A stretch of DNA of 64,000 nt from Gamaleyavirus AN24P2 (OZ035810.1), one strand, 5' to 3'; positions 44,627 through 48,859 are shown, counted from the first letter of the stretch. Numbers and translations are program-made. Notes: generated by a model not told the origin, from the sequence alone.

Positions 44627-45937
44627 TTAGAAAGTTAGACCACCATACTTACTGGCAAGATTGCCATAGAACACTACTCGCTTACGTGCACGAGACACAG
44701 CGACGTAAAGCAGACGGGCAACCATATCAGGTTGGCGACAGCTTGAGAGGTCATTTGCATCAATGAAGATTGTGTCGTAAGTAGAGCCTTGTGATTTATG
44801 GACAGTACATGCATGAGTAGCACGCAGATCTGGAATGGTTTCTTTAAGACGGAAGTAAGGTTCCCAGTTCTTCTCTTTACCCAGCCACTTAACCAAGCGG
44901 TTAAAGTAGTCTGGGTCAGTAGGTACTGGAACCTCACTTACGATACCACCATAGCCAAGGTCAAGAGTACTATCACGAACTTCCAGTTCCAGGTCACCTG
45001 TAACCTTAACCATGCGAGTACTACTATCCTGGTCAATGAGTTTTACGTCTTGCTCAATAGACAGACGATTATCCACACCTAAGCGAACAGCAGAGTTAGA
45101 TACTAGTTGTTCACCAATGGAGTACTCACCCACGTAGCCATTGGCTTCACGAATGTAGTTATTGTAATTAATAACCTGGTCATTTGTGTAAGCAACAATA
45201 CGGCTATTGGTGGGTTGAGTGAAGTGACTGAGAACCAGTTTCTCCATCTCTTCCCCTTGTACCCAGTCAATGATGCCTGGAATACACTTAATAGGCAGGA
45301 AGCCTGTCTTACCTTCCACCGTATCACGCAATTGCTGGTGCAATGCTTTGAGTTCCGGTGCATCGGTACGCATCTGTTCAGTCAGATAGTGTGTTGGGAT
45401 ATTACCTGCATATACCGGAGACTTATTCTCTTTAACAGGCAGAAGCTGAGAAGCATCGCCTACGAATACCAGCTTACACTGGTGAGTGCCTTCACGAGCA
45501 TACTTAAGTAACTGACGGTCAATCATGGATGCTTCATCTACGAAGATGATTTTGTTCTTCTTAATATTGAATGATTTGGACGGTACGACATTAGCCTCGC
45601 CAGTCTTAAAGTCATTCTTAACAATCAGTCCCTGGAAGGAATGATAGGTAGATGTTGGACGTCCAGTAGCCTGAGCCAGAACTTCAGCAGCTTTGTTCGT
45701 GGTCGCAGTCATAACAACCTCGTTATACAGAGGCTTGGTTCCCATAAGGGAGCAAGTTTCCATATATGCAGGCATAGTGTCATCAATGAGGTGCGACATC
45801 AGGAATGTCTTACCAGTACCACCTGGGCCTGAAATTCCAAATTCGGTAGCATTAGGGTCGAGCAGGAAGTCGAAGAACTCCTTCGCAACCGCTTCTTGCC
45901 CCTTGTTCAGTGGGGCTTTGGTAGGTTTGGAAAACAT
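44627..45937 (-). CDS. SF1 DNA helicase (Dda/RecD-like)
   Basis: 436 aa; Walker A GPGGTGKTF, Walker B IIFVDEASMI, C-terminal VHKSQGSTYDTIFID typical of Dda/RecD helicases. Confidence 0.75.
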   Translation of the reverse strand: MFSKPTKAPLNKGQEAVAKEFFDFLLDPNATEFGISGPGGTGKTFLMSHLIDDTMPAYMETCSLMGTKPLYNEVVMTATTNKAAEVLAQATGRPTSTYHSFQGLIVKNDFKTGEANVVPSKSFNIKKNKIIFVDEASMIDRQLLKYAREGTHQCKLVFVGDASQLLPVKENKSPVYAGNIPTHYLTEQMRTDAPELKALHQQLRDTVEGKTGFLPIKCIPGIIDWVQGEEMEKLVLSHFTQPTNSRIVAYTNDQVINYNNYIREANGYVGEYSIGEQLVSNSAVRLGVDNRLSIEQDVKLIDQDSSTRMVKVTGDLELEVRDSTLDLGYGGIVSEVPVPTDPDYFNRLVKWLGKEKNWEPYFRLKETIPDLRATHACTVHKSQGSTYDTIFIDANDLSSCRQPDMVARLLYVAVSRARKRVVFYGNLASKYGGLTF

Positions 45938-45970
45938 TAAAATCTCCAGTAAAAAACCCTCCGTAGAGGG

Positions 45971-46438
45971 TTAGATGTAATGGGTTAAATCCGGGGGAGT
46001 GTAGTCTTTCCCTTTCATAACTTTCTTATTCTCATTAAAGACAGGTTCTCCATCTTCAAACTTAGAATAGTTTGAGCGATTGACCTCAGCCAATGCTCCG
46101 GGGACATTCATCCCAAGGAAAGTACCGACGCCAGTTGCTGTAACAATCTGGTCAGCCAGTGAATCCAGAAAAGCTAAGCGATTGCTTTTTGCTGGGAAGA
46201 TCGCCATGTGGTTTGTTTTCATCAGCAGTGATAATTTACCCAAAGCAGCCTGTGCATCGGCTAGCACTTGTATACTTTCCTCACAGGATGGGGTCAACTC
46301 ATCTAACATTTCACATACTTCTTCCAGATGGCAACCAATCTGGGTACTAATGTTCTTACTCGTCGGATTTGCTACTGCTTTCCGGAACCAGGCTTCCGTA
46401 TTTGCCAGCGTACAAACGGATGAACTTTTCATGCTCAC
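45971..46438 (-). CDS. hypothetical protein (weak MazG-like nucleotide pyrophosphohydrolase resemblance)
   Basis: 155-aa ORF; acidic helix HLEEVCEMLDEL; 5' end overlaps the upstream HTH gene by about 80 nt. Confidence 0.3.
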   Translation of the reverse strand: MSMKSSSVCTLANTEAWFRKAVANPTSKNISTQIGCHLEEVCEMLDELTPSCEESIQVLADAQAALGKLSLLMKTNHMAIFPAKSNRLAFLDSLADQIVTATGVGTFLGMNVPGALAEVNRSNYSKFEDGEPVFNENKKVMKGKDYTPPDLTHYI

Positions 46439-46751
46439 TCTCTTGGTTAAGGCGGCGATTATTATATGCCTCCAGAATCAAGTCTCTTACATATGAGCGA
46501 ATCTCATAAGCAGGGCCAACTTGTTCTGACAGCCAATCAGCCACATGGGTTGGTAAAGGACGTAATACGTTTTCCATGAACGTCCGACGTGTGTCGGCTG
46601 GTTCAATATTTAAAGAACGCAATCGCAGAGTAACTGTAGTGGGGTGAACCCCCAACGTCTTAGCGATAGTTGCGAGGGACAGACCAACAGCATTCATACG
46701 AATGATGTCTTCATCAGTTGCTTTGCGATTACTTCTGAATACTTTAGACAT
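46356..46751 (-). CDS. HTH DNA-binding protein
   Basis: 131 aa; helix-turn-helix LSLATIAKTLGVHPTTVTLRL. Confidence 0.45.
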   Translation of the reverse strand: MSKVFRSNRKATDEDIIRMNAVGLSLATIAKTLGVHPTTVTLRLRSLNIEPADTRRTFMENVLRPLPTHVADWLSEQVGPAYEIRSYVRDLILEAYNNRRLNQESEHEKFIRLYAGKYGSLVPESSSKSDE

Positions 46752-46813
46752 AGCTTATTTCCTCTTCAAAGATAGCCTCACTTTATTATAAGTGAGGCTA
46801 TTTGAACAGGCTA

Positions 46814-48859
46814 TTACTTAGCAGCTTTGACCAGCTTGGTAGCTAACTTAGCTTCTTCTTCAGTCAGACCCATTGCAGTGAATGACTTCTTGGCATGACG
46901 CTTATAGTCTTGCAGAGCATGACCTTTCTGATAGTCAGAGTACGTCGTATCGTTCAGTATGCTACGCAGATTATCAGCATGTTTACCAGACGGAGCTACT
47001 TTAGAGGCAGTAGCAGAACGCATAGGTTTAGTTTTCTTCACTGACTTAGCTTTTGGTGCAGGAATACGAGTACTACGAATAGTAGCAATTGCATCCACCA
47101 CATCGGAACTAACTCCTAAAGCAGCCCATGGCTTACGAGCCTTGCCTCGCATTTCCACAAGTAAATCAGCAGCAGCTAACTTATCTTCTGGTGTTGTTGC
47201 ATTGAGGAACTCTCTAATCAGTTCCTGGATTTGTTCTTTCACAGTAGGAGCCTTCTTAGTAACAGGTTTGAGGTCAGTAGCCTTCACTGGTTCAGCAGCT
47301 ACAGCTTCATTCAGTGACTCTTCCATGTTCAGTGCTTCTTTACTAGCAACTGTACGGAATTGTTCTACAGAACCAGATGTGAGATTAGTGTATTTGAGGT
47401 TAGTACCACGATGTCCACCAACCATAATAAGTGTGGTAGGTGAACTATGGTTCCCAACGATGGCATCATTAAGCAGTTTCTTACCTACTTCTGTTTTAGA
47501 CAGGTAGATACCGTTGTTAACGTTATTACGTTCTTCTTCCGGCAGTTCAGCAATAATATGATATGCAGATACACGCATCTTATTGGTGCTGTACTGAGGA
47601 ACAGCAAATACATCTTCCGGTGCTACTTTACCAAGGATAGTTACGTTACCGCCGAAGCTACGGATATAGCTCATGGATGCTACATGCAAACCGTTAGAGC
47701 AGTCCTGACGACGGTCAGGGTCTACCAGGTCTTCACGTACCTGCACTTTACAGCCTACCCATTGACGAATGTTGCCTGAGTGACAATCAACGAATACACG
47801 TTTACCATCTTCTTTATCTTTATACTGAAGACGTTTCAGGAACAGGATTGAACCATCATCAGCAATAGGTAGCTCAGCAGTTTCCATGAACTTCATCAGA
47901 TCTTCTACTGAGTGCAGGCGGTCTTTAATAACCGGAGCCAGACGCTCAAGGAACTTGGTAAATCCCTTGTAGTCTTTCAGCTGGGCAGACTGACGCAAGT
48001 GACGCTGTAGGTTTTCAACTCCAGGTATAACCCCATTGTTGGTAACAGCAACAACCACTTCATCTTCTTTCACTTCAGTGTGGAAGTTAGCGTCATCGGT
48101 ACTAATAGCACCCAATGCAGCTAACTTATCAGAGACGGCAGCCAGCTTATCCTGGTTCGTAACTTTAACCTCTTCTACATATGGAAATGGCGTTACATCA
48201 CGACTGGTAAATACAATGTGTACTCCTTTGATGTGCTTGGCTTGTTTAATAAACTCACCCATTTCATCATCGGATACTGCACGGATTCCAATAGGCCATT
48301 CCCGTGCAAGGATGCGATTAGTATGGTCATAGCCCCAACCCAGTACGTCGTTAATAAAACGAACCAGTGCAGGATGGTTATGGTCCTTACCCCAGCCAGT
48401 AACCCACATCAGATTGTCACGTCTGTCGTAAAAACCATCAGATACTATTACTTCTGGTTCATTAGCCTGTACAGCCAGGAAAGTATCCATAGCTTTAGAT
48501 ACTAATGTCTTAGTAGGATTACCCAGCTTAATATCTGAAACGATACGGGCAGGAGGAGCACCTGTACCATCTTCGAAGAACTCTTTGAGTTTAGCTTTAG
48601 CTACCTTGAAGAAACGGACGAATCCGTTAGTGTTCTTCTCTGCTTCCAAGTATTCAGTACGCAGAGCTACTTCTGGTGCAATGTTTACTTCTATCTGGTC
48701 TTTGGTAGTTCCCAGACCTTTGGTTTGTGCTTCAGATACAATGCGAGCAACCCGTAGGTCGCTCTGAGGATATACAATCGTGGAGCCATCAGGCTTCCAC
48801 AGTGTAAGGTTACGACTGTCAACTGCCAGTGCGATGATAGAAATCAATTCGATTTTCAT
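46814..48859 (-). CDS. rIIB: rIIB-like protein
   Basis: 681-aa ORF immediately downstream of and co-oriented with the rIIA-like gene; assignment by synteny with N4-like phages. Confidence 0.45.
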   Translation of the reverse strand: MKIELISIIALAVDSRNLTLWKPDGSTIVYPQSDLRVARIVSEAQTKGLGTTKDQIEVNIAPEVALRTEYLEAEKNTNGFVRFFKVAKAKLKEFFEDGTGAPPARIVSDIKLGNPTKTLVSKAMDTFLAVQANEPEVIVSDGFYDRRDNLMWVTGWGKDHNHPALVRFINDVLGWGYDHTNRILAREWPIGIRAVSDDEMGEFIKQAKHIKGVHIVFTSRDVTPFPYVEEVKVTNQDKLAAVSDKLAALGAISTDDANFHTEVKEDEVVVAVTNNGVIPGVENLQRHLRQSAQLKDYKGFTKFLERLAPVIKDRLHSVEDLMKFMETAELPIADDGSILFLKRLQYKDKEDGKRVFVDCHSGNIRQWVGCKVQVREDLVDPDRRQDCSNGLHVASMSYIRSFGGNVTILGKVAPEDVFAVPQYSTNKMRVSAYHIIAELPEEERNNVNNGIYLSKTEVGKKLLNDAIVGNHSSPTTLIMVGGHRGTNLKYTNLTSGSVEQFRTVASKEALNMEESLNEAVAAEPVKATDLKPVTKKAPTVKEQIQELIREFLNATTPEDKLAAADLLVEMRGKARKPWAALGVSSDVVDAIATIRSTRIPAPKAKSVKKTKPMRSATASKVAPSGKHADNLRSILNDTTYSDYQKGHALQDYKRHAKKSFTAMGLTEEEAKLATKLVKAAK

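What the first reader, a model, noticed from the sequence alone, without database searches (positions are those of the whole stretch)
45971..46751. Overlapping gene pair: HTH regulator and MazG-like ORF
The 131-aa HTH protein and the 155-aa downstream ORF overlap by about 80 nt in different frames. This may be a genuine overprinted gene pair or a mis-set start; the HTH protein is a candidate regulator of the middle-to-late switch.
Basis: seen in the sequence. Interest (0 to 1): 0.2.

Follow-up and report, generated by a model that had tools for sequence, protein, structure and literature searches.

The report
Real gene overlap in N4-like phage
Two neighbouring replication-module genes of an N4-like coliphage (a small DNA-binding protein and a nucleotide pyrophosphatase) really do overlap by 77 bases, an arrangement already annotated in phage N4 and of ordinary interest.

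Summary
The window is Gamaleyavirus AN24P2 (N4-like, Schitoviridae). On the minus strand, 46356-46751 encodes the orthologue of N4 gp35 (131 aa, helix-turn-helix). The next gene encodes the orthologue of N4 gp36, an all-alpha NTP pyrophosphohydrolase.

The overlap is real. The gp36 start is the ATG at 46432 (153 aa, 77-nt overlap), not the GTG at 46438. That ATG is invariant in 17 distinct relatives and has the best Shine-Dalgarno pairing of the candidate starts. Homologues in unrelated phages that lack the HTH neighbour align from residue 2-9. The downstream ATG (46309), used in two public annotations, would delete helices 1-2 and the invariant EExxE motif.

The overlap is asymmetric. The first ~36 nt show constraint in both frames: they encode the conserved end of the HTH protein's last helix and a weakly conserved gp36 leader. 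In the last ~41 nt, substitutions follow only the gp36 frame. The last 13 HTH residues therefore behave as an unconstrained, predicted-disordered run-on tail. Across Schitoviridae the HTH stop position varies widely, and one lineage has a homing endonuclease inserted in the overlap.

No evidence links the HTH protein to the middle-to-late switch, which in N4 is attributed to N4SSB. The arrangement is already annotated in N4 and G7C. Low interest.

The parts
46772..46801 (-). Perfect 12-bp hairpin with a 6-nt AT-rich loop, between the rIIB stop and the HTH gene's ribosome-binding site. It forms the upstream boundary of the two-gene unit and is likely a terminator or RNA-stability element.
   Evidence: the repeat finder I11, the only perfect 12-nt hairpin with a loop in the listed pairs. 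Conserved with compensatory stem changes in G7C, N4 and KP8 relatives. Annotated 'stem_loop' in G7C and 'terminator' in SP5M.
46760..46766 (-). Shine-Dalgarno sequence (AAGAGGA) of the HTH gene, 8 nt before the ATG.
   Evidence: Read from the sequence. Anti-SD duplex -6.0 kcal/mol.
46356..46751 (-). HTH protein gene, 131 aa, orthologue of N4 gp35 (phrog_6377). The core domain is residues 1 to ~100. The last helix runs to residue 115, and residues 116-131 are predicted disordered.
Evidence: ORF. phrog_6377 E=1.5e-73 over its full length; Pfam HTH_38 and HTH_23 sub-threshold. AF2 model pLDDT 76.5 with helices 13-22, 26-33, 37-46, 54-63, 68-77 and 84-115; residues 116-131 have pLDDT <50.
46435..46444 (-). 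Purine-rich Shine-Dalgarno-like element (AAGAGAGTGA) for gp36, lying inside the HTH ORF.
   Evidence: Anti-SD duplex -7.9 kcal/mol, within the top ~5% of all 22-nt windows on this strand. N4 (AAGGA) and KP8 (AAAGG) keep a purine-rich element at the same distance although the encoded HTH residues differ.
45971..46432 (-). All-alpha NTP pyrophosphohydrolase gene (MazG/PRA-PH-like), 153 aa, orthologue of N4 gp36, starting at the ATG at 46432.
   Evidence: phrog_671 E=4.8e-31, aligned over residues 4-154 of the 155-aa ORF submitted. ATG invariant in 17 distinct relatives. Annotated with this start in 24-32N, G7C and N4. hhalign 98-99% to proteins that pass Pfam PRA-PH.
46398..46432 (-). Dual-constraint part of the overlap. 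It encodes HTH residues 107-118 (H-E-K-F-I-R-L-Y-A-G-K-Y, the end of the last helix) and the gp36 leader, residues 1-12.
   Evidence: Fitch changes per site at HTH codon positions 1/2/3 are 0.83/0.42/0.92, against 0.51/0.18/2.23 in the HTH core. HTH third positions are suppressed (p=0.0008) and gp36 third positions are suppressed (p=0.004). The motif is conserved out to Achromobacter and Pseudomonas N4-like phages.
46356..46397 (-). Run-on part of the overlap. It encodes gp36 residues 12-25 (helix 1, invariant W15) and HTH residues 119-131 plus the stop codon. The HTH frame shows no detectable constraint here.
   Evidence: Changes per site are 2.69/0.92/0.85. Variation has moved to HTH position 1, which is gp36 position 3 (p=2e-8 against the core). 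The HTH tail has pLDDT <50. The tail is replaced or lost in pSb-1-like phages.
46310..46324 (-). Codons for the invariant E37-E38-x-x-E41 motif (putative metal-binding) of gp36.
   Evidence: Invariant in alignments A1, A3 and A4, including two proteins that pass Pfam PRA-PH.
46307..46309 (-). Internal ATG (Met42), used as the start in the IME11 and SP5M annotations and by many automatic gene calls. Rejected as the start here.
   Evidence: 112-aa annotations. This start lies downstream of the EExxE motif and of helices 1-2. Anti-SD pairing is only -4.5 kcal/mol.
45955..45972 (-). Intrinsic-terminator-like hairpin followed by a T-run, overlapping the gp36 stop codon. It forms the downstream boundary of the unit, before the Dda-like helicase gene.
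   Evidence: scan_promoters_terminators. A hairpin is kept at this position in G7C, N4 and KP8 relatives; the T-run is present in the Gamaleyavirus and N4 loci but not in KP8.

Best explanation
This is a genuine, conserved, same-strand, out-of-frame overlap between two middle-region genes of an N4-like phage: the gp35-type HTH protein gene and the gp36-type all-alpha NTP pyrophosphohydrolase gene.

Shown:
- gp36 starts at the ATG at 46432, 77 nt upstream of the HTH stop.
- That ATG sits inside the HTH codons His107-Glu108 (CAT-GAA).
- A purine-rich Shine-Dalgarno-like element lies just upstream, also inside the HTH ORF.

Inferred:
- Ribosomes initiate on gp36 independently, inside the HTH ORF, on a shared transcript bounded by two conserved hairpins.
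- The overlap arose by 3' extension of the HTH gene into the older gp36 N-terminal coding region.

Shown by substitution pattern: the overlap is functionally asymmetric. The first ~36 nt are constrained in both frames. They encode the conserved end of the HTH protein's last helix and a poorly conserved, probably disordered gp36 leader. The remaining ~41 nt evolve as ordinary gp36 coding sequence (helix 1). The last 13 HTH residues are an unconstrained tail that ends wherever conserved gp36 codons happen to create a stop (AGT-AAG gives TAA, with a back-up TAG 9 nt later).

Functions (inferred only): the HTH protein is a small sequence-specific double-stranded-DNA-binding protein of the replication module, with unknown target. 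gp36 is a nucleotide-pool NTP pyrophosphohydrolase of unknown substrate.
For: - Identity and synteny. The window is 100% identical to Gamaleyavirus AN24P2. The gene order rIIB, HTH, NTP-PPase, Dda helicase is shared with N4 gp34-gp37.
- Start site. The ATG is invariant in 17 distinct Enquatrovirinae sequences. The His (or Tyr) codon carrying the A and T of the ATG always ends in T, never C, whereas only 13% of HTH-core third positions are invariant. Anti-SD pairing is best for this ATG, -7.9 kcal/mol, top ~5%.
- The gp36 N-terminus is ancestral. Homologues in Vibrio phage 1.090.B, phiHSIC and Achromobacter phage JWT have no HTH gene upstream, yet align from residue 2-9 and keep W15 and EExxE. 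The AF2 model places helices at 8-19 and 25-44.
- Asymmetric constraint. Position-specific Fitch counts and Mann-Whitney tests in 15 Enquatrovirinae sequences show it, and 5 Rothmandenesvirinae sequences show the same pattern.
- The HTH tail is disordered in the AF2 model.
- The stop position is plastic. Across 55 distinct Schitoviridae loci the HTH protein is 99-195 aa. Overlap with the favoured gp36 start ranges from none (other genes inserted between) through 1-8 nt to about 200-270 nt.
- A natural uncoupling exists. In pSb-1-like phages an HNH endonuclease gene sits in the overlap. The HTH protein keeps residues up to ...YAGK and loses the tail, and gp36 restarts downstream.
Against: - There is no direct expression evidence for either start (no ribosome profiling or N-terminal proteomics).
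- The substitution analysis covers only 25 codons in 15 related, recombining sequences, using parsimony on a neighbour-joining tree, so the p-values are indicative only.
- Constraint in the first 36 nt could partly reflect requirements of gp36 translation initiation rather than HTH protein function.
- The Shine-Dalgarno element in this genome is imperfect (AAGAGAGTGA).
Confidence: 0.85

Rival explanations
1. Mis-set start: gp36 really begins at the internal ATG (46309, Met42), giving a 112-aa protein and no overlap, as annotated in IME11 and SP5M.
For: Two public records and many automatic calls give the 112-aa form. A GGAAGAAG element lies upstream of that ATG.
Against: - This start would delete predicted helices 1-2 and the invariant EExxE motif.
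- Residues 9-41 are conserved in homologues from unrelated phages.
- Substitutions in 46356-46397 follow the gp36 reading frame.
- Anti-SD pairing is weaker than at 46432.
- The 112-aa calls are most simply explained (my inference) by gene finders that penalise same-strand overlaps longer than about 60 nt.
Confidence: 0.03
2. Fully dual-coding overprinting: all 77 nt encode functional residues of both proteins, with the HTH tail (residues 119-131) serving as, for example, an interaction or degradation tag.
For: The stop position and the 131-aa length are kept in most Enquatrovirinae. The tail is acidic and serine-rich in many members.
Against: - HTH first codon positions in the tail change at 2.69 per site against 0.51 in the core (p=2e-8).
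- The tail sequence differs freely between close relatives.
- It is predicted disordered.
- It is lost in pSb-1-like phages and absent in many Schitoviridae.
- The stop is created by conserved gp36 codons, so its conservation needs no selection on the HTH protein.
Confidence: 0.08
3. Programmed +1 ribosomal frameshift in the overlap producing an HTH-NTP-PPase fusion protein.
For: The gp36 frame is +1 relative to the HTH frame and stays open upstream of the ATG.
Against: - gp36 has its own conserved ATG and Shine-Dalgarno-like element.
- I saw no slippery or shift-prone motif in the sequence.
- The relative frame differs (0, +1, +2) and other genes intervene in other Schitoviridae (RG-2014, OLIVR1, pSb-1-like).
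- There is no significant RNA structure around the start (z=-0.97).
Confidence: 0.02
4. The HTH protein is the regulator of the middle-to-late transcription switch.
For: It is a DNA-binding-type protein, presumably expressed with the middle (replication) genes given its position, and is widely conserved among Schitoviridae.
Against: - In N4, late transcription is attributed to host sigma70-RNAP activated by N4SSB (PMC4496689).
- gp35 is not among the 14 core genes of N4-like phages (PMC4193335).
- No literature on gp35 function was found.
- Nothing in the sequence ties it to late promoters.
Confidence: 0.05

Closest known systems
Escherichia phage N4 gp35/gp36 (EF056009: 20143-20538 and 20462-20914) and G7C gp35/gp36
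   Same: These are orthologous genes in the same order (rIIB, gp35, gp36, helicase), with the same 77-nt overlap, the same relative frame, and the gp36 ATG at the same position in the gp35 codons.
   Different: The HTH proteins are 76-89% identical and the gp36 proteins 67-71% identical. The central part of gp36 (residues 44-88) is a different cassette.
Long same-strand gene overlaps created by loss or shift of the upstream gene's stop codon (3' extension), a general class in prokaryotic and phage genomes (background knowledge, not checked in the paper library)
   Same: The overlap is out of frame. The downstream gene's N-terminus is the older reading frame. The upstream gene's added tail is variable, compositionally biased and disordered. 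The stop position differs between lineages.
   Different: Part of the extension (~12 codons) has become conserved in two subfamilies, so it is not pure run-on.
All-alpha NTP pyrophosphohydrolases of phages (MazG / PRA-PH-like; PHROG 671)
   Same: It has the EExxE motif, a conserved acidic pair, and a C-terminal region that aligns with proteins passing Pfam PRA-PH. It lies in a nucleotide-metabolism and replication gene context.
   Different: The window protein gives no Pfam MazG or PRA-PH hit itself. There is a long variable insert between the acidic motifs. The substrate is unknown.

Membership tests
Genuine dual-coding (overlapping) gene pair | Both reading frames encode proteins with independent homologues | tested here: met
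   The HTH protein has 159 phage records and 419 protein clusters. gp36 has 337 phage records and 601 clusters, including phages that lack the HTH gene.
Genuine dual-coding (overlapping) gene pair | The downstream gene's start lies upstream of the upstream gene's stop, and this is conserved in relatives | tested here: met
   The ATG is invariant at HTH nt 320 in Enquatrovirinae and Rothmandenesvirinae. The conserved gp36 W15 codon lies 23-239 nt before the HTH stop in these and several other genera.
Genuine dual-coding (overlapping) gene pair | Purifying selection on both frames throughout the overlap | tested here: not met
   Dual constraint is seen only in 46398-46432. In 46356-46397 only the gp36 frame is constrained.
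All-alpha NTP pyrophosphohydrolase superfamily (MazG / PRA-PH-like) | Significant match to a curated family model | tested here: inconclusive
   - Pfam and NCBIfam give no hit for the window protein.
- Pfam PRA-PH is sub-threshold in 5 of 31 homologues.
- PHROG 671 gives E=4.8e-31.
- hhalign gives 98-99% probability to CN2 and Darwin proteins, which pass the PRA-PH cut-off.
All-alpha NTP pyrophosphohydrolase superfamily (MazG / PRA-PH-like) | EExxE motif on helix 2 plus a second acidic motif | tested here: met
   E37, E38, E41, D90 and D94 are invariant across A1, A3 and A4. The spacing to the second motif is longer than in the canonical MazG motif as I recall it, because of the variable insert.
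All-alpha NTP pyrophosphohydrolase superfamily (MazG / PRA-PH-like) | Four-helix-bundle fold matching solved MazG or HisE structures | tested here: inconclusive
All-alpha NTP pyrophosphohydrolase superfamily (MazG / PRA-PH-like) | NTP pyrophosphohydrolase activity | not testable with these tools
   Needs an enzyme assay.
Helix-turn-helix DNA-binding proteins (HTH_38 / HTH_23, homeodomain-like) | Tri-helical HTH motif | tested here: met
   The AF2 model has helices 13-22, 26-33 and 37-46 at pLDDT ~90. All top Foldseek hits are HTH DNA-binding domains, but with E>0.1.
Helix-turn-helix DNA-binding proteins (HTH_38 / HTH_23, homeodomain-like) | Score above the curated Pfam cut-off | tested here: not met
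   HTH_38 scores 21.0 bits against a cut-off of 27. HTH_23 scores 20.0 against 24.6. Some homologues carry a precomputed PF13936 hit.
Programmed ribosomal frameshift fusion | Conserved shift site and conserved relative frame, with no independent start for the downstream ORF | tested here: not met
   gp36 has an independent conserved ATG and Shine-Dalgarno-like element. The relative frame varies among genera and genes can intervene.
Regulator of N4 late transcription | Requirement for late promoter activation | not testable with these tools
   The literature assigns this role to N4SSB (PMC4496689). No data on gp35 were found.

The most novel reading that the evidence does not exclude
The most novel reading not excluded has two forms. 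In the first, the conserved ~36-nt dual-coding segment is a regulatory device: ribosomes finishing the HTH ORF pass over the gp36 ribosome-binding site and start codon, and so set or limit the gp36:HTH ratio. In the second, the gp35 HTH protein is a so-far unassigned transcription or replication factor of N4-like phages, for example a double-stranded-DNA-binding helper at AT-rich middle promoters, or at the conserved hairpin just upstream of its own gene.
Probability: 0.05. Interest if true: 0.45.

Novelty: already known. Interest (0 to 1): 0.1.

Why it matters
The main value is for annotation. Public records of this phage group disagree: some show the 77-nt overlap, some truncate gp36 to 112 aa, and some omit the HTH gene or annotate an antisense ORF instead. 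The comparative evidence settles the start at the ATG at 46432. It is also a small, clear example of how a long overlap can be real yet only partly dual-functional. It does not change the understanding of N4 gene regulation.

Tried and rejected
- A Foldseek search with the HTH model returned only generic HTH domains at E>0.1.
- phmmer and profile searches of PDB sequences gave no meaningful hit for either protein.
- Pfam and NCBIfam gave nothing above threshold for either protein.
- Literature searches for gp35/gp36 function, N4-like transcriptomes or essentiality screens found nothing specific.
- RNA folding around the gp36 start gave no structure beyond chance (z=-0.97), so structure-based translational coupling is unsupported.
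- The +1 frameshift fusion, the downstream-start hypothesis and the late-switch regulator role were considered and rejected or down-weighted, as set out under the rival explanations.
- The long (167-195 aa) HTH-frame ORFs in Achromobacter and Pseudomonas N4-like phages were considered as evidence of a much larger functional overlap. This was rejected because their tails are Gly/Pro/Ser/Asp-rich, vary in length between close relatives, and show gp36-frame periodicity.

Full report
**Identity and context**

The 1.5-kb region around the finding is 100% identical, at the same coordinates, to Gamaleyavirus AN24P2 (OZ035740.1). It is 89-99% identical to many G7C-like coliphages of the family Schitoviridae.

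All relevant genes are on the minus strand:
- rIIB-like gene, 46814-48859.
- A 131-aa helix-turn-helix (HTH) protein, 46356-46751.
- A ~153-aa NTP pyrophosphohydrolase-like protein, ending at 45971.
- A Dda/RecD-like helicase, 44627-45937.

This is the phage N4 gp34-gp35-gp36-gp37 block.

The two-gene unit is bracketed by two hairpins. Upstream is a perfect 12-bp hairpin at 46772-46801, conserved with compensatory changes. Downstream is a terminator-like hairpin plus T-run at 45955-45972.

**Checking the observation**

The two ORFs exist as described. They overlap by 83 nt if the downstream ORF starts at the first in-frame GTG (46438), and by 77 nt from the ATG two codons later (46432). The downstream frame is +1 relative to the HTH frame.

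Public annotations disagree:
- N4, G7C and 24-32N annotate the 77-nt overlap.
- IME11 and SP5M annotate a 112-aa protein from an internal ATG (Met42, 46309) with no overlap.
- KP8 uses yet another start.
- The inbricus and Axy04 records omit the HTH gene altogether.
- Automatic calls in metagenomes are similarly split between ~144-153 aa and 112 aa.

**Which start is right**

Four lines of evidence favour the ATG at 46432.

(i) *Conservation.* The ATG is invariant in 17 distinct Enquatrovirinae sequences. It lies within the HTH codons His107-Glu/Asp108 (CAT-GAN), and the His codon is always CAT, never CAC. Only 13% of third positions in the HTH core are invariant. The GTG at 46438 is absent in N4 and KP8-type phages.

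(ii) *Ribosome binding.* The 22 nt upstream of this ATG pair with the 16S rRNA 3' end at -7.9 kcal/mol, within the top ~5% of windows on this strand. The value is -2.9 for the GTG and -4.5 for the internal ATG. N4 and KP8 keep a purine-rich element at the same distance although the HTH residues encoded there differ.

(iii) *Protein conservation.* Residues 9-43 of the 153-aa protein are strongly conserved. W15, P23, T24, K26-I28, T30, Q31, G33-E38 and E41-L43 are invariant among close relatives. Q31, G33, H35, E37, E38 and E41 are invariant across Schitoviridae. Homologues in phages unrelated to N4 have no HTH gene upstream, yet are 143-147 aa long and align from residue 2-9. These are Vibrio phage 1.090.B, phiHSIC and Achromobacter phage JWT.

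(iv) *Predicted structure.* The AF2 model places helix 1 at residues 8-19 and helix 2, carrying EExxE, at residues 25-44. A start at Met42 would remove both.

In this genome there is no other in-frame ATG, GTG or TTG between codon 1 and Met42. The overlap is therefore at least 77 nt.

**What the two proteins are**

The HTH protein matches phrog_6377 over its full length (E=1.5e-73). It matches Pfam HTH_38 and HTH_23 only below threshold.

Its AF2 model (pLDDT 76.5) has a confident tri-helical HTH at residues 13-46, two further helices, and a long last helix at 84-115. Residues 116-131 have pLDDT <50. Foldseek finds only generic HTH DNA-binding domains at E>0.1.

The downstream protein matches phrog_671 'nucleotide pyrophosphohydrolase' (E=4.8e-31) but no Pfam or NCBIfam model.

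A profile of 31 diverse homologues aligns at 98-99% hhalign probability with Bordetella phage CN2 and Corynebacterium phage Darwin proteins. Both of those pass the Pfam PRA-PH cut-off. The acidic residues E37, E38, E41, D90 and D94 are invariant.

Fold searches with the mediocre model (pLDDT 67) were uninformative. I therefore file the protein in the all-alpha NTP-PPase superfamily (MazG/PRA-PH-like) on sequence-profile grounds, not as a member of Pfam MazG proper.

**Anatomy of the overlap**

I aligned 15 distinct Enquatrovirinae sequences without gaps and counted parsimony changes per site on a neighbour-joining tree. In the overlap, HTH position 1 is gp36 position 3, HTH position 2 is gp36 position 1, and HTH position 3 is gp36 position 2.

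| Segment | Changes per site at HTH codon positions 1 / 2 / 3 |
|---|---|
| HTH core, residues 1-99 | 0.51 / 0.18 / 2.23 |
| Overlap, first 12 HTH codons (46398-46433) | 0.83 / 0.42 / 0.92 |
| Overlap, last 13 HTH codons (46359-46397) | 2.69 / 0.92 / 0.85 |
| gp36-only codons 27-43 | 1.78 / 0.50 / 0.33 |

The HTH core shows the normal pattern for a protein under purifying selection, with variation concentrated at third positions.

In the first 12 overlapping codons, HTH third positions are suppressed (p=0.0008). gp36 third positions are suppressed relative to the rest of gp36 (p=0.004). HTH first positions are no more variable than in the core (p=0.17). Both frames are therefore constrained here.

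In the last 13 HTH codons the periodicity has switched to the gp36 frame, matching the gp36-only codons. HTH first positions vary far more than in the core (p=2e-8).

Five Rothmandenesvirinae sequences show the same pattern: 0.1/0.1/0.4 for HTH residues 107-116, then 0.82/0.55/0.43 in the tail.

At the protein level, the HTH motif (A/E)-H-E-(K/R)-F-(I/L)-(K/R)-(L/R)-Y-(A/V)-G is conserved from G7C to N4 and KP8. It appears as (H/Y)-E-R-H-L-x-K-Y-G-G in Achromobacter and Pseudomonas N4-like phages. What follows it differs freely even between close relatives.

The HTH stop (TAA) is formed by the wobble T of gp36 codon 25 plus the AA of the invariant Lys26 codon. A second stop (TAG) follows 9 nt later, inside the conserved Ile-Ser codons. 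This second stop is the one used in three relatives whose first stop is lost.

**Wider family**

Among 55 distinct Schitoviridae loci, the HTH core (~100 aa) is highly conserved but total length ranges from 99 to 195 aa.

- *Short forms.* Erwinia phages, Zuri and ort11 end 1-8 nt inside the gp36 start region, which is classic 1/4/8-nt coupling.
- *Intermediate forms.* Philippe, RiverRider, Pokken and QDWS595 overlap by 47-86 nt.
- *Long forms.* Achromobacter phages and inbricus keep the HTH frame open for ~200-270 nt into gp36. Their tails are Gly/Pro/Ser/Asp-rich and vary in length between near-identical phages.
- *Separated forms.* In RG-2014 and OLIVR1 other genes separate the two.
- *Interrupted form.* In pSb-1-like phages an HNH (HNH_3, E=9e-16) homing-endonuclease ORF is inserted exactly in the overlap. 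It co-opts the old gp36 ATG and its first codons. The HTH protein keeps ...EHDKFIRLYAGK and then ends after six unrelated residues. gp36 restarts right after the endonuclease stop.

Together these indicate that the gp36 N-terminus is the older frame. The HTH gene has repeatedly extended or retracted over it. Only the first dozen extension codons have acquired a conserved role, and only in Enquatrovirinae and Rothmandenesvirinae.

**Mechanism**

Shown: two independent, conserved coding frames, with a conserved internal start and ribosome-binding element.

Inferred: both proteins are translated from one middle-class transcript, and gp36 initiates de novo inside the HTH ORF.

I found no significant RNA structure around the start (z=-0.97). 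I saw no frameshift-prone motif. The relative frame is not conserved across the family. I therefore reject both a frameshift fusion and structure-dependent coupling.

The biochemical roles are inferred from family membership only: DNA binding for the HTH protein, and nucleotide-pool hydrolysis for gp36.

**The regulatory suggestion**

In N4, middle transcription uses RNAPII (gp15/gp16) with gp2 and probably gp1. Late transcription uses host sigma70-RNAP activated by N4SSB (PMC4496689). gp35 is not among the 14 core genes of N4-like phages (PMC4193335). I found no functional study of gp35 or gp36. A role in the middle-to-late switch is therefore unsupported, though not excluded.

**Caveats**

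- There are no expression data.
- The substitution tests use few sites, and the sequences are related and recombine (the gp36 centre is visibly mosaic).
- Part of the constraint in the first 36 nt could come from translation-initiation requirements rather than HTH protein function.
- The superfamily assignment of gp36 is by profile transitivity, not by structure.

**Verdict**

The 'genuine overlap' alternative is supported, and the 'switch regulator' idea is not. The arrangement is already present in the N4 and G7C annotations, so novelty is nil beyond the asymmetry analysis. Interest is low.

Noticed in passing
L024 1814-2338 (also L025); corresponds to an insertion at about window 46390: In pSb-1-like relatives a 174-aa HNH_3 (+AP2-like) homing-endonuclease ORF is inserted exactly inside the gp35/gp36 overlap. 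It uses the old gp36 ATG and its first ~12 codons, truncates the HTH tail, and displaces gp36 to a new start right after its own stop.
   Followed up: partly
window 46169-46303 (gp36 residues 44-88): The central part of gp36 (end of helix 2, a loop and helix 3) exists as at least five discrete, unrelated-looking cassettes among Enquatrovirinae. Their flanking gp36 sequence is nearly invariant, especially the C-terminal 65 residues. This looks like mosaic recombination or diversifying selection on one face of the enzyme.
   Followed up: partly
window 46772-46801: A perfect 12-bp hairpin with a 6-nt AT-rich loop lies between rIIB and the HTH gene, flanked by TTCAAA/TTTGAA. It is conserved with compensatory stem changes in G7C, N4 and KP8 relatives. 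Public records call it 'stem_loop' or 'terminator', and its function is unknown.
   Followed up: partly
window 45955-45972: An intrinsic-terminator-like hairpin (CCCTC-TACG-GAGGG) plus a T-run overlaps the gp36 stop codon, only ~18 nt before the helicase start. A hairpin is kept at this position in relatives; the T-run is present in the Gamaleyavirus and N4 loci but not in KP8.
   Followed up: partly
L003 2712-2879 (IME11; also PW8): Some close relatives carry an extra 55-aa ORF between rIIB and the HTH gene that is absent from this window.
   Followed up: no
L007 and L008 (inbricus, Axy04), 1501-2088: The public records of these N4-like phages do not annotate the HTH gene at all. Axy04 annotates an antisense ORF in its place. 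In these phages the HTH-frame ORF is open for 167-195 aa.
   Followed up: partly
L011 1800-2207 (Delftia phage RG-2014): In this phage a gene annotated 'recombination directionality factor' sits between the HTH gene and a longer (197-aa) pyrophosphohydrolase gene. tblastn with the window gp36 protein found no match in this locus.
   Followed up: no
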